A stretch of DNA of 64,000 nt, taken from assembly GCA_964016885.1 (NCBI GenBank), contig OZ024742.1, positions 364,002,001-364,066,000 of the forward strand, given 5' to 3'. The translations under genes and the position numbers were made by a program. Position 1 is the first letter of the stretch; each line of letters begins with the position of its first letter. Origin of the DNA: Eledone cirrhosa (Eukaryota). This document shows, one piece after another, positions 40,003-59,192 of the stretch. The notes below the pieces were generated by a model. That model was not told the origin of the DNA. It searched no databases and saw nothing but the letters and a program-made list of their open reading frames with translations.

Positions 40003-42900
40003 ATGTACATGGGTGCCTATTCAGACCACAAATTAGTCACCTGCTTAGTCAACCATGATAGGATACATAGACAAGGACCCGGATACTGGAAGCTGAACAT
40101 GTTGTTACCGACGCATGAAGCCTACTGTAGACTGATAAGTAGATTAGTTAAGCAACAGTTGACTGGAGCCATCGTCAACAATAGATGGTAGTACTCTCTC
40201 AACAGAGCAATTAGAGTAGAGTTGATAGATTTTAGCAAAGAACTAGCATTAGAGAAAAACAAGACAGAAAGAGAACTAATAGCCAAGGTTGAGGAGGCGC
40301 TTAGCGGTGGCAACGCAGCTAGAGTGCTAGCAACGAGAACGGCACTAGACCATTTCTTCCATGCGAAACACGAAGGCTGCGTGGTCAGGAGTAGATCAAG
40401 TGCTCTAGGAAACGAGGGAGCAAAAGCTGTTAGCTGGGCCCGAGTGGCAGAGGCGAAAAGTGGCAACAAGTCCACGAATCGGTCTTTGAAAGACTAAAAC
40501 TGACACATGCTACTTGACTCCAAGCGGATGTGCGCGGCCTTCCAGCGGCAATTTGCGCAACTGTTCGAGCAGAGCGGCGGTGCGCCGAACGAGGCAATGG
40601 ACTTCGGTTCTTTCCTTACGGCCTGCCGTGTCTCTCAAGCATGGACGCTGAGTTCTGCGAAAGACCGATCACAGCTACTGAGATACGGGACGCTCTGAGT
40701 CGCAGCGGAAACGCAAATCACCCGGTCTAGATGGTCTACCCTATGAGTTTTACATAGGCATGGCGGACTTGTTGTCTGGCGTCCTCGAAGCAGTCTGCTG
40801 CAACTGACAGCAGAACGGGAGAATTCCCAGTTCTGCAGGCAGGGGCCTAGTAACGCTGATCAGGAAAGACAAGAACAAGGGGACGAACTAAGCAACGTTA
40901 GGCCCATAACTCTCCTAAACACAGAGTTAAAGATTTTGGCCAAGGTGTTAGCAACGAGGTTGGCGCTTGTCGTCGAGTACCTAGTGGGAACAGCTCAAAC
41001 GTGTGCAATTCCAACCAGGTCCATACACGACAACCTCCACCTCATGCGATACATCATAGAGAGGGTGGCGTTTAAAACCGGCTTCGGTGGGGCTCTGATC
41101 AATTTAGATCAGTCTAAGCCATTCGATAGGGTCGACCATCAATATTTGGAAGCAGTTCTCAAGGCGGCCGGTTTCGGAACTGTCTTCAGAGGCTGGATCA
41201 CAGCCATGCACACCAACATATGCTCGACAGTCAAGGGGAACCGCTACCTATCGGAGCCATTCGCAATCACGCGTTCCATCCGACATGGATGTCCTCTCTA
41301 CCCGATTCTGTACGTATTGAGTCTAGAGCCACTACTGCGGAAGTTGGAGCGTCTGCAGTGCATCCCGTTGGAACCAGGACTGCGGAAAGTGGCGTCGGCT
41401 CATGCCGACGACATGACGGTAATGTTGTTGAAAACCTCGGCAACTCACTCCAGGAATACAAAAGTTTCATAGGAGCAAAATTGAACCCGGACAAGTCTGT
41501 CAGTTTGGAACTCGGAACGTGGAGAGGCAAACCGATGCCGTTCGACAGCGTTGTCGGACGCTGGACGGAAGGACCGGTGAAATTGCTCGGGGTCTGGTTC
41601 GGTTCGGACCTCCAGGTGGAAACAAACAGGACCGAGGTTATGGCCAAGGTATTTGCTCTCATAGAGAAGTGGGCAGAGTGCAAACTATCCTTGAAAGGTC
41701 GAGTGGAGGTGGCGAACACTTTCATAGTGTCCGTCACCTACTACCGCTTGACCGTCGTGTATTGTCCCCGTGAATAACTAACCAAGATGGAACGCATGCT
41801 CTTCCAGTTCCTTTGGAAGAAGTAGGGTCCACTAGTGAGGAGATCCGTCTGCTGTCAGCACCCTTCCAACGTTGGGCTGGGATGCCGTGGCTGATGATGC
41901 GCAAACATGCGCTGAGGCTACGGCATCTCCAGGTATTCCTCACCGAACAACCGGTGTGGGCCCGTTTGTGAGACAGGCCTTCCCGCAACCTGTCTCGCTG
42001 ACGGAGCTGCAGTCCTGGGTCAAGCGGAGACCGAAGAAAATGAGCGCCCGGCACATTGAATGCGCTCAGGCGCTCACAGTCCTCTTTCAAACGGGCACAG
42101 CAGTCAGTGGAGACTCCACTTCGACATTCTGTAGAGTGTTAGTACGTTACAAGTGAGACGACGTGTTCGGAGAGACTCTGGGCGCCGAAGACAACGAGCT
42201 CACCAGTCTGTTTGGTAGGACTTTCCTCCCTGACCGATGGACAAGTTCCAGTATTCTCTGGCCTGGCAGTGCTACCGATGAGCTCTACCAGTTGGAGACA
42301 AGATCTACAGGCACGGACGCCTCGACAGGAATCCATCCAAGAGGACAAACCCAAGATGCGAGCAGGACATTTAAACCGTCTTGCACGCAATTTTACACTG
42401 CTCGGGCGTAACCGACCTGTGGAACTATGCAGAAAAACTGCTGTCACGTATGGAACAAATCAAGTTGACTGCCGATTCCATAGTAAGTATCAAACCGCCT
42501 TTCCCTCCAGACAACAACTCATTCCCTTCTTTAAGTACCACTTAAGAAGGAGAATCAGAGTGGAGAGAAAGGCACTGCACCCCAGTAAATTTACTGAATA
42601 GTGGGTGAATGTAGCAAAAATGGCCCGAGTGATTGGGCCTTCTCTGTATATAAACCTGCGGGTTGAATATGAGAGCAAAAGGAAGAAGGGAACACTTGCA
42701 CAACACGCTCCTGGAGTTGAGGGTTGTTCTATCGACGGGGTATTAAACAACCCATTTCTAACGCCTCCCCATTATTGGGAATTTCGATTGTTAAATTTAC
42801 TTGTTTTAATAAAATCTTTACACGACTGTATGTAAAATCCCCGACATGTGTCTTTGTATTATCCCACTTTCTTGTGCGCCCTTGTGGCAAATAAAGAAAT
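40003..42900 (+). mobile_element. Tx1-clade LINE copy C (5'-truncated, degenerate), (ATCT)n-tailed lineage
   Basis: Starts inside the APE domain (AYSDHKLV..GPGYWKLN) and has fragmented RT. 3' end CTTGTGGCAAATAAAGAAAT is followed by (ATCT)-like repeats, and TCTATCT lies at the 5' junction. Confidence 0.9.
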
Positions 42901-43180
42901 ATATCTATATGTCTGTCTATCTATCTATTTATCTACCTATGTATCTATCTGTCTGTTTTACTTGAGACGTGTGCCAGTTCGCTGGTAAGTTTTTGTTGAT
43001 TTTCTAAGTAAGAAATCAAAGATTTATTGTTAAATTTATTACTATTTTATAGCTTGACCCCACCTCTGGACTTTCAGATGGTGGGCCAAGTCATCTTCAC
43101 CCCTCCCTGGGGTGAAATTTTCGTTTTGAAAAAAAATTTCGCCGGTGAAATAAAAGTGTAAACAAACCCTGCATTCAGTC

Positions 43181-57352: not shown

Positions 57353-58910
57353 GGGCTAAGCTGAACCGGGACAAGTCGATCGGTTTGCAACTCGGCACGT
57401 GGAGGGGCAGACCGATGCCCTCCGATGGCGTCGTCGGACGCTGGACGGAGGGCCCGGTGAAGTTGCTCGGGGTCTGGTTCGGACCGGACCTCCAGGTGGA
57501 GAAAAACTGGGCGGAGGTTACGAACAGGGTGTTTTCACTGACCCAGAAGTGGGCCAGTTGCAAACTATCCCTGAAAGTTCGGGCGGAGGTGGCGAACACC
57601 TACATAGCGTCCGTCATCTACTACCGCCTGACCGTAGTGCCCTGCCCAAGGGAAACCCTCACCAAGATGGAGCGCGCGCTCTTCCAATTCCTTTGGAAGA
57701 GGCGGGCTCCTATGGTGAGGAGATCCATCTGCTGTCAACACCCTTCGAAAGGAGGGCTGGGGATGCCGTGGCTAATGATGCGTAAACACGCATTAAGGCT
57801 ACGGCACCTCTACGTATTCCTCACCGGACAACCGGTGTGGGCCTCGTTTGTGAGACGAACCTTTCCCAGACTCGTCTCACTCACCGAGCTGCAATCCTGG
57901 GTCAAGCAAAGACCGAGAAAACTGGGCGCCTGGCACACTGAGTGTGCCCAGGCGCTCACCGCCCTCTGGCAGGCGGATCCGGTTATCAGTGGAGACTCCA
58001 CCGCAACATTCTATAGAGGGCTGGTACGTAGCAGGTGCGACGACGCCCTCGGAGAAGCCCTAGACATGGAGGAGGACGAACTGGCCAGCCTGTTCGGTAG
58101 GACATTCAGCCCGGGACCTATGGACAACTTCCAGAAGTCCCTGGCCTGGCAGTGCTACCGAGGGGCTTTACCCGTTCGAGAAAGGCTCTACAGACACGGG
58201 CGCCCGGGTAGGGACCCCGCCAAAAAGATCTGTCCCAAATGCGTGTGCGACGAGGAAACCGTTGCACACGCATGGGTACACTGCTCGGGCGTAGCCGATC
58301 TGTGGGGCTATGTCGAACAACTGCTGTCAAGGGTGGGACCGATCCGGTTGACCACCGAGTCTATTGTAATGATCAAGCCGCCTCCCCCCTTCAAAGATGA
58401 AGCAGAGGCGGTGTTTCTGTGCGTAATAGCCATGGCGAAAGAGGTTGTATGGTGGACGCGTCTGAAAGGACTGAGGTCAGGCACCTTTCTCTCTGGCCAA
58501 CAACTGGTCCGTTTCTTCCGAGATCATTTCGGAAGAAGGATCAGGATGGAAAGAGAGGTGCTGCACCCCAGCCGTTTCTATGAAAGATGGGTGAAAGTGG
58601 CGAGAATGGCCCGTGTGAATGGGCCTTCACTCTACATCAGACTATAGCTGAGGAAGATGAAAGACCAAGGGAGCACCCCTTCTCTGTGCTCCCGAGGAGA
58701 AGGGTTGCACACTTTTTTCGGGGGTGTGTGCGACCCCCCAAGGCGCCTCCTCTCTATTGAGGATTTTGTTATAAATTTTATTTTTTGTTATATCTTATTT
58801 TATTTTTATATTTTGTTATTGCCTCCTCCTTATTGAGGACGCCTTTTTGTGTAAACTCTCCCCTTTGTACTTGTCCCACTTTTGATGCCCTAGTGGCAAA
58901 TAAAAGAAAC
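57350..58910 (+). mobile_element. Tx1-clade LINE copy E (5'-truncated; open ORF2 C-terminal 420 aa, 57385-58647)
   Basis: Homologous to C/D, with CPKC..ETVAHAWVHC. 3' end AATAAAAGAAAC is followed by a near-perfect (ATCT)n at 58911-58970. Confidence 0.92.
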
Positions 58911-59192
58911 ATATCTATCTATCTATCTATCTATCTATCTATCTATCTATCTATCTATCTATCTATCTATATATATCTATATATCTATATATATCTATAT
59001 ATCTATATCTCTCTCTCTCTCTCTCTCTCTCTCTCTATATATATATATATATATATATATATATATATAAGGTAAATTATATGAGTTGATAATACAAAAA
59101 CATAAAGCATTCATATATTTAAACCTCTGATATGATTGTATATATATAGGGAGAAACAAAGCAGGCTTTGTTCAGAAACAGCTAGTGAATTT

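What the first reader, a model, noticed from the sequence alone, without database searches (positions are those of the whole stretch)
40003..58970. Sister Tx1 lineage with a switched target: (ATCT)n/(GATA)n instead of (TTA)n
Seen: copies C, D and E are clear homologs of A/B (shared RLETFLGTSRS..VGDWNGILDARWD and the same 3' terminus) but all end in ATCT repeats. D starts inside C's ATCT tract, and C has TCTATCT at its truncated 5' end. The loop between WTW and SRS(Y) differs (B: TNRIAS; D: TN-x-SGT, across a frameshift). Known: this beta-hairpin loop influences target choice in APE endonucleases. Inference: the two lineages are a natural pair for mapping a specificity switch.
Basis: partly seen in the sequence, partly recalled or inferred. 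Interest (0 to 1): 0.7.

Follow-up and report, generated by a model that had tools for sequence, protein, structure and literature searches.

The report
LINE family radiating across repeat targets
Closely related jumping genes in this animal genome sit in different short DNA repeats (TTA, ATCT, GTCT and two longer repeats) with duplicated landing sites, so they likely aim at those repeats, but the enzyme loop proposed as the switch is identical in subfamilies with different landing sites, so it is probably not the whole explanation.

Summary
The target difference is real. ATCT lies upstream of 26 of 30 full-length D-type 5' ends and 60 of 80 5'-truncated ATCT-lineage copies (background 0.5%). 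TTA lies upstream of 60 of 60 full-length A/B-type ends. Target-site duplications of 16-20 nt begin TATCT or ATTATT. The clade has about 40,800 3' ends genome-wide and young intact copies. It is not a pair: the ATCT clade also holds subfamilies in (GTCT)n, a minisatellite and a 72-bp repeat. The loop hypothesis is weak. The loop has L1's length in all subfamilies, is identical in three target classes, and varies within ATCT. It separates TTA from ATCT at one residue (Ile/Ser), one of 67 such endonuclease positions. In L1 this loop contacts DNA downstream of the nick, whereas the discriminating bases here lie upstream. The likely mechanism is endonuclease preference for a short word, plus help from target repeat carried in the RNA ends; neither was tested. 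Microsatellite-targeting Tx1 sisters are known (Kibi/Koshi, crocodilian families). This scan already noted the ATT, ATCT and 72-bp targets on other DNA of this genome. Tx1-clade membership was not tested against named references.

The parts
40003..42899 (+). Copy C: 5'-truncated, decayed ATCT-lineage LINE starting in the last part of the endonuclease; TCTATCT at its 5' junction
   Evidence: 78% to D, 71% to B
42900..42954 (+). Degenerate (ATCT)n tract: 3' flank of C and 5' flank of D
42955..48792 (+). Copy D: full-length, broken ATCT-lineage LINE (ORF1 pieces 43154-44951; ORF2 45151-48561 with stops and frameshifts); relatives 90-97% identical
45707..45739 (+). D endonuclease hairpin-loop region, with a 1-nt deletion (family sequence [TS]NRSGTSR)
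48793..48829 (+). (ATCT)n 3' flank of D
56890..57349 (-). Possible Penelope-like (GIY-YIG) fragment abutting E's 5' end; identified by eye only, start approximate
   Evidence: translation; no Pfam hit; not significant
57352..58909 (+). Copy E: 5'-truncated member of a young ATCT subfamily (relatives up to 99% identical, with intact 1153-aa ORF2 frames)
58910..58968 (+). (ATCT)14 3' flank of E
19629..25654 (-). Copy B: intact young TTA-lineage LINE; ORF1 with a CCHC knuckle; ORF2 (ATG 23309 to 19893) with APE, RT and zinc-binding domain; hairpin loop 22742-22710
   Evidence: 20 fetched relatives about 99% identical
13736..19521 (-). Copy A: decayed TTA-lineage LINE with a different 5' end and ORF1; starts in B's TTA tract
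19522..19628 (.). (TTA)n tract between B's 3' end and A's 5' end; other TTA tracts at 13687-13735 and 25655-25683

Best explanation
These are copies of one abundant clade of L1-group (likely Tx1-type) non-LTR retrotransposons whose subfamilies sit in different tandem repeats with 16-20-nt target-site duplications, likely because the endonuclease nicks a short preferred word and target repeat carried in the RNA ends likely helps to choose and join the site. The inferred nick is on the strand opposite the element, giving C|TATCT on the sense strand for the ATCT subfamilies, C|TGTCT for the GTCT subfamily, C|TATAT for the minisatellite subfamily (and perhaps the 72-bp one), and ATTATT for the TTA lineage. 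Each insertion leaves repeat on both sides, so copies stack head to tail. The TTA/ATCT difference most likely lies in the endonuclease surface that binds the 5-6 bp upstream of the nick, and/or in RNA-primer pairing, rather than in the hairpin alone. Shown: flanks, TSDs, loop sequences, tree. Inferred: nick position, role of the endonuclease, role of RNA pairing.
For: Full-length 5' ends, repeat 8-mer within 40 nt: D-type 26 of 30 ATCT and 0 of 30 TTA; B-type 30 of 30 TTA; A-type 30 of 30 TTA. Truncated copies, 8-mer within 30 nt: ATCT lineage 60 of 80 ATCT and 1 of 80 TTA, and 28 of 47 ATCT where no other element end lies within 120 nt; TTA lineage 10 of 22 TTA and 0 of 22 ATCT; background 0.5-0.8% of 26,100 windows (Fisher p 4e-11 and 3e-7). 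TSDs at non-repeat sites start TATCT (L224 17 nt, L040 20, L060 17, L443 16; L417 16) or ATTATT (L301 18, L114 18, L366 17). The base left of the TSD is C in 20 of 25 TATCT sites, and in 7 of 12 whose left flank is not TATC (hand tally). An RNA tail cannot read that base, which points to the endonuclease. RNA-borne target: 14 of 14 full-length F copies and 8 of 8 G copies share one constant 15-nt repeat piece at the 5' junction, which matches their own 3' flank in only 4 of 14 and 0 of 8, while truncated F copies have ordinary TSDs. AATAAA lies 6-8 nt before the target and no poly(A) sits at the junction in the assignable 98 of the first 100 listed ends. Literature: endonuclease swap moved SART1 to the TRAS1 site (PMC7265360 introduction); 3' read-through annealing raised R2Ol insertion (PMC6530143 passages); the L1 loop contacts +1 to +3, and upstream DNA is bound by the scaffold (PMC8565326 and PMC1950540 passages).
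Against: No biochemical or RNA evidence was obtained. Specificity is loose: 20 of 80 and 12 of 22 truncated copies lack their repeat upstream (some are internal deletions or later breaks). Copies occur in (TC)n, (TACC)n, (TA)n and (TTC)n, and 5 of 30 GTCT-subfamily ends read TATCT. Copy E in the window has no upstream ATCT. A 5-6-bp word cannot by itself explain why F and G keep to one minisatellite or one 72-bp repeat, and only 7 truncated F, 1 truncated G and 2 truncated H-assigned copies were seen. The one loop residue that tracks TTA versus ATCT aligns to L1 Pro197, which does touch DNA. Samples are top-scoring hits, biased to young copies and arrays.
Confidence: 0.62

Rival explanations
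1. The hairpin loop is the switch: Ile versus Ser at the loop tip decides TTA versus ATCT, and Arg/His versus Asn decides ATCT versus GTCT.
For: All TTA-lineage loops seen carry Ile and all ATCT-clade loops Ser at position 194; one TTA subfamily (ANRIGSSR) and E (ANRSGSSR) differ in the loop only there; H has a private N193. The position aligns to L1 Pro197. The hairpin matters in TRAS1 and R1Bm (PMC1919474 passages).
Against: 66 other endonuclease positions track the same single split. F and G share the loop with D/D2 yet have other targets. I (RNHSGQSR) and E differ from D2 in the loop yet keep ATCT. The L1 loop reads downstream bases, and grafting the Tx1L loop did not transfer its site.
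Confidence: 0.13
2. The target is inherited mainly through the RNA. The endonuclease is permissive across the clade; transcripts read into the parent's flanking repeats, which pair with the nicked target at both ends, so a copy that lands in a new repeat founds a new target class.
For: Constant target-like 5' pieces in F, G and D2 (CTCTCTATC variant in 7 of 10 young full-length copies). The conserved target bases lie on the side that would pair with the RNA 3' end. The poly(A) signal is positioned so that cleavage would fall inside the downstream repeat, and there is no genomic poly(A). Same loop with different targets.
Against: C preference left of the TSD (20 of 25 sites) is outside the pairing region. 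No extra repeat units were added at clean non-repeat sites (L224, L040, L060, L417). F, G and H each have 10-22 private endonuclease residues. No transcript data.
Confidence: 0.2
3. There is no real targeting. The repeats are tails made by the element, and upstream repeats arise from template jumping, tandem amplification or assembly error.
For: 33 of 80 truncated ATCT-lineage copies have another element's end within 120 nt upstream. Some H and G copies form regular arrays.
Against: 28 of 47 truncated copies with no neighbouring end still have ATCT upstream. TSDs occur in unique DNA. Locus-specific repeat variants appear on both sides of H copies. The host repeat beyond G's arrays is 74-90% identical between loci while G copies are 95-100%.
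Confidence: 0.05

Closest known systems
Kibi (TC)n and Koshi (TTC)n of teleosts; crocodilian Tx1 families in (TTCC)n/(TTTC)n (PMC4494074, passages and section 15)
   Same: APE-type two-ORF LINEs; related families each specific for a different microsatellite
   Different: Targets here are TTA, ATCT, GTCT and two longer repeats, within one genome and with young intact copies. Relationship to Kibi/Koshi was not tested, as no named sequences were on hand.
Xenopus Tx1L in Tx1D and crocodilian Tx1-Mar in Mariner-N4_AMi (PMC4494074 passages)
   Same: Targeting of a site inside another dispersed repeat, as subfamily G does in a 72-bp array carried by a dispersed element
   Different: G is a close relative (EN 81%) of microsatellite-targeting subfamilies with the same loop
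Silkworm SART1/TRAS1 (R1 clade; PMC7265360 abstract and introduction)
   Same: Related elements with different sites in a simple repeat; a model for swapping specificity, where an endonuclease swap moved the site
   Different: R1 clade, telomeric, with poly(A) tails; the elements here have no poly(A) at the genomic junction
Human L1 ORF2p and L1-EN (PMC1950540 and PMC8565326 passages)
   Same: Best solved relative (E 2e-52 over residues 5-855); hairpin of the same length (9 residues between the T192 and S202 anchors); TSDs of similar size
   Different: L1 nicks TTTT/AA and primes on poly(A); L1 loop grafts did not give the donor's specificity

Membership tests
APE-type non-LTR retrotransposon, L1 group | ORF2 with N-terminal APE endonuclease, RT and C-terminal zinc-binding motif; separate ORF1 | tested here: met
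   Pfam Exo_endo_phos, RVT_1 and zf-RVT in B, D2 and H (zf-RVT just under its cut-off in H); best solved match is L1 ORF2p
APE-type non-LTR retrotransposon, L1 group | 5' truncation and short TSDs, as from target-primed reverse transcription | tested here: met
Tx1 clade | RT groups with named Tx1 elements (Tx1L, Kibi, Koshi, Keno) | not tested
   No named Tx1 sequence was returned by any search (searches gave no clade names); the tree has only unnamed outgroups. The label rests on recall.
Tx1 clade | ORF1 with a CCHC zinc knuckle (feature recalled, not from a call) | tested here: met
   CX2CX4HX4C seen directly in the ORF1 of B and D2; no Pfam hit above cut-off
Target-specific Tx1 families (criterion of PMC4494074: one sequence type in over 20% of flanks) | Same repeat flanking most copies | tested here: met
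   75% of truncated ATCT-lineage copies, 45% of truncated TTA-lineage copies, 87-100% of full-length ends
Target-specific Tx1 families (criterion of PMC4494074: one sequence type in over 20% of flanks) | Endonuclease itself cuts the target sequence-specifically | not testable with these tools
   Needs a nicking assay; only the indirect C preference left of the TSD was seen
Hairpin-determined specificity switch | Loop sequence tracks target across subfamilies | tested here: not met
   Same loop in ATCT, F and G; different loops within ATCT; one residue tracks the TTA split

The most novel reading that the evidence does not exclude
Heritable retargeting by RNA: these LINEs pick up a piece of the repeat they land in at both ends of their transcript and use it to home to the same repeat, so new target classes (GTCT, a minisatellite, a 72-bp repeat) arise with little or no change in endonuclease preference. 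The target would be partly programmable by the donor RNA's flanks.
Probability: 0.22. Interest if true: 0.8.

Novelty: new member of a known kind. Interest (0 to 1): 0.45.

Why it matters
How APE-type LINEs change target is open: endonuclease swaps move the site in SART1/TRAS1, but loop grafts in L1 do not. This clade offers five target classes among endonucleases 60-88% identical, with natural intact ORF2s for TTA, ATCT, GTCT and the 72-bp repeat. The GTCT subfamily has only 10 endonuclease residues absent from all four ATCT subfamilies compared, so the question can be tested directly. The clade is also large (about 40,800 3' ends) and stacks inside microsatellites.

Tried and rejected
RNA evidence: no RNA holder listed; the one run guessed to be RNA laid nothing on B's 3' end, which is no evidence either way. 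AlphaFold model of the B endonuclease from a 5-row alignment: mean pLDDT 55, loop region under 50; not used and not searched. The Atlas look-up through homologue P0006 gave only generic APE-RT clusters; homologue searches gave no clade names. The tblastn step returned no endonuclease rows because of a script option; sequences were taken instead. Continuation of the Penelope-like piece beyond E was not found. My note that the left flank is not conserved was overturned (C preferred). The idea that the AGACGTG word near several 5' ends is a downstream promoter element (recalled from insect LINEs) was dropped: its spacing is variable and A and B lack it. The EMBO J endonuclease-swap paper was not held and is cited only through PMC7265360 and PMC1919474. 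Supplements of PMC4494074 could not be read; they and that paper's Fig. 3 list Tx1 targets and may bear on novelty. Repbase and Dfam could not be checked.
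Full report
Observation. The window holds five related LINE copies. A (19521-13736) and B (25654-19629) lie on the minus strand between (TTA)n tracts; C, D and E lie on the plus strand and end in ATCT tracts. C, D and E match A and B at 69.5-71.9% nt and each other at 78-81%. B is intact, with ORF2 carrying APE endonuclease, RT and zinc-binding domains. The best solved relative is human L1 ORF2p (E 2e-52). 'Likely an octopod' is my guess, echoed by earlier unreviewed notes; no call names the host. The label Tx1 rests on recall and on the CCHC knuckle in ORF1; it was not tested against named references.

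Tail or target. I searched the genome with 5' ends and 3' ends; each DNA search scored 40 candidates of 193-3,614 and gave loci for the best 30. A repeat 8-mer within 40 nt upstream of full-length 5' ends was found as follows: D-type 26 of 30 ATCT and 0 TTA; B-type 30 of 30 TTA and 0 ATCT; A-type 30 of 30 TTA and 0 ATCT (each set includes the window copy). Because a full-length 5' repeat could be part of the element, truncated copies are the real test. One search found 185 distinct copies with both junctions in loci L001-L400; no row was dropped, and internal deletions and a few misassigned rows count as they fell. Of 80 truncated ATCT-lineage copies, 60 had ATCT and 1 had TTA within 30 nt upstream; among the 47 with no other element end within 120 nt, 28 had ATCT. 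Of 22 truncated TTA-lineage copies, 10 had TTA and none ATCT. Background was 0.5% (ATCT) and 0.8% (TTA) of 26,100 flank windows (Fisher p 4e-11 and 3e-7). Where the site departs from pure repeat, TSDs are visible: 17 nt in L224, 20 in L040, 17 in L060 and 16 in L443, all starting TATCT, and 18, 18 and 17 nt in L301, L114 and L366 starting at ATTATT. One intact ATCT-clade copy sits inside another element's endonuclease gene at a TATCT with a 16-nt TSD (L417). Copy E itself has no upstream ATCT and is one of the misses.

Size of the clade. A pattern for the shared 3' terminus matched 40,846 places against 9 for the reversed control. Only the first 100, from one contig end, were listed. By hand: 37 continue in ATT, 48 have ATCT-clade ends (36 reading TATCT after the 2-nt linker), 12 continue in the 72-bp repeat, 1 is GTCT-type, and 2 are not assignable. 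None of the 98 assignable ends has poly(A) at the junction. Twenty fetched B relatives are about 99% identical, 19 with a 1195-codon ORF2 frame. Young ATCT subfamilies with intact ORF2 also exist: D2 (11 of 20 fetched loci with a 1150-codon frame), E and I.

Not a pair but a radiation. Searching with a distant homologue (30 of 150 hits examined, 40 regions fetched) revealed close relatives of the ATCT subfamilies in other repeats. F lies in a degenerate minisatellite and G in a 72-bp tandem repeat. H lies in (GTCT)n-like arrays: 25 of 30 H ends read TGTCT and 5 read TATCT (hand count). H copies carry the same locus-specific array variant on both sides. The sequence beyond G's arrays is shared among 6 of 14 loci at 74-90% while G copies are 95-100% identical, so the host repeat looks older than the insertions. 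In an ORF2 tree of 16 rows (C, D and A left out as broken), D2, F, G, I, E and H form one clade (100/100) apart from B. I+E+H has 100/99, E+H only 84/87, and D2, F and G are unresolved. The ancestral target cannot be told. Endonuclease identity is 60-63% between B and the rest, 87-88% for E-H, 86-88% for D2-F and 81% for D2-G.

The loop. Alignment to L1-EN places the segment between WT-W and S-Y-L-D on the betaB6-betaB5 hairpin, with the same length as in L1. The loops are: B TNRIGSSR (23 of 27), a second TTA subfamily ANRIGSSR, D/D2 [TS]NRSGTSR, E ANRSGSSR, I RNHSGQSR, F SNRSGTSR, G TNRSGTSR, H SNNSGQSR (counts are over overlapping loci, so some copies count twice). F and G share the loop of D/D2 but not its target; E and I differ from D2 but keep ATCT. 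B differs from all four ATCT endonucleases compared at 67 of 232 positions, of which one (Ile194 versus Ser) is in the loop. H differs at 10 (one in the loop), F at 12 and G at 22 (none in the loop). Against: in L1 the loop touches positions +1 to +3 downstream of the nick, and upstream DNA is held by a positively charged scaffold patch (PMC8565326, passages); grafting the Tx1L loop on L1-EN did not give the Tx1L site (PMC1950540, passages). By TPRT geometry the TSD start (TATCT versus ATTATT) is the upstream side. F's private G65R lies near the L1 Lys70 patch, and G's G116W lies in the loop that carries L1 Asn118; these are leads only.

Mechanism. At 25 informative TATCT sites (hand tally; two rest on 7-nt matches; sites with pure-repeat, TATAT or TACC duplications were left out) the base left of the TSD is C in 20. 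It is C in 7 of the 12 whose left flank is not TATC (binomial p 0.002 at 18% C; about 0.01 at the 23% of these loci, by hand). An RNA tail cannot read that base, so the endonuclease probably recognises both sides. A short word cannot explain F or G, however. All 14 full-length F copies and all 8 G copies scored share one repeat piece at the 5' junction, and it matches the copy's own 3' flank in only 4 of 14 and 0 of 8, while truncated F copies have ordinary TSDs of 16-20 nt. This suggests the RNA starts in upstream target repeat and joins by homology. The AATAAA signal lies 6-8 nt before the target, so by the usual cleavage distance (established knowledge) transcripts would carry some downstream repeat, able to pair with the nicked strand as shown for R2Ol (PMC6530143, passages). 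Against a dominant RNA role, no extra repeat units appear at the clean non-repeat sites L224, L040, L060 and L417. No transcript data were available.

Known relatives and novelty. Related Tx1 families with different microsatellite targets are published: Kibi (TC)n, Koshi (TTC)n and crocodilian (TTCC)n/(TTTC)n (PMC4494074, passages and section 15; supplements not readable). PMC4640811 (passages) names Tx1 and R1 as the APE-type targeted clades. PMC1919474 (passages) and PMC7265360 (abstract and introduction) report that an endonuclease swap moved SART1 to the TRAS1 site. An Octopus vulgaris repeat annotation lists 13 young L1-Tx1 families and does not contain the word 'target' (PMC13282606, passages). 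My searches (listings and abstract starts only for papers not named above) showed no paper on TTA, ATCT or GTCT targets for this group; the library lacks most subscription journals and Repbase. Earlier unreviewed notes of this scan report the ATT and ATCT lineages and the 72-bp target on other DNA of this genome; I had reached these readings before looking. None of the 16 notes listed names GTCT or a loop-versus-target comparison.

Verdict. The target switch is real and well supported, and these are new members of a known kind. The specific loop mechanism is unlikely to be sufficient. The value lies in a graded natural series with intact enzymes, and in a testable hint that RNA flanks help carry the target.

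Noticed in passing
window 26788-36800 (+): RT elements without an APE hit, ending in (TAA)n and facing opposite to A/B in the same microsatellite. The C-terminus has a CCHC and a PD-x-D-like motif, suggesting Dong/R4-type restriction-like endonuclease (label recalled). One 1215-codon frame is open at 26788-30432.
   Followed up: partly
L301, L366, L106, L251, L253, L321, L335 (upstream flanks): A short dispersed repeat whose 3' end resembles the TTA lineage's terminus and ends in ATT repeats; it often serves as landing site. Possibly a partner SINE.
   Followed up: no
L331-L357 flanks: The 72-bp array targeted by subfamily G is followed by a shared 74-90% identical segment and occurs in both orientations near some loci, as if carried by a small transposon.
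   Followed up: partly
G000:C3:358.74-358.78 Mb (L376-L380, L400) and C1:4.23-4.26 Mb: Regular head-to-tail arrays of near-identical H copies (about 5.6 kb spacing) and G copies (about 5.8 kb spacing); repeated insertion or tandem amplification not distinguished.
   Followed up: no
L417:2612-6079 (G000:C3:70.654-70.662 Mb): An intact ATCT-clade element inserted antisense into the endonuclease gene of an F copy at a chance TATCT, with a 16-nt TSD.
   Followed up: yes
L328; L052, L129; L177: Off-target copies: a TTA-lineage copy followed by (TTC)n, D-type copies in (TC)n, an E copy in (TACC)n with that repeat on both sides.
   Followed up: partly
window A versus B: A and B share ORF2 at 91% nt but have unalignable 5' ends and diverged ORF1, suggesting 5' module exchange within the TTA lineage.
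   Followed up: no
window 1-4309: 51-bp tandem array, 84.6 copies, 91% matches.
   Followed up: no
window 61035-63998 (+): Penelope-like element with weak RT and GIY-YIG hits, running off the window end.
   Followed up: no
window 10540-10862, 9316-9431, 49096-49265, 59193-59480: Palindromic (self-inverted) segments, possibly small foldback transposons.
   Followed up: no
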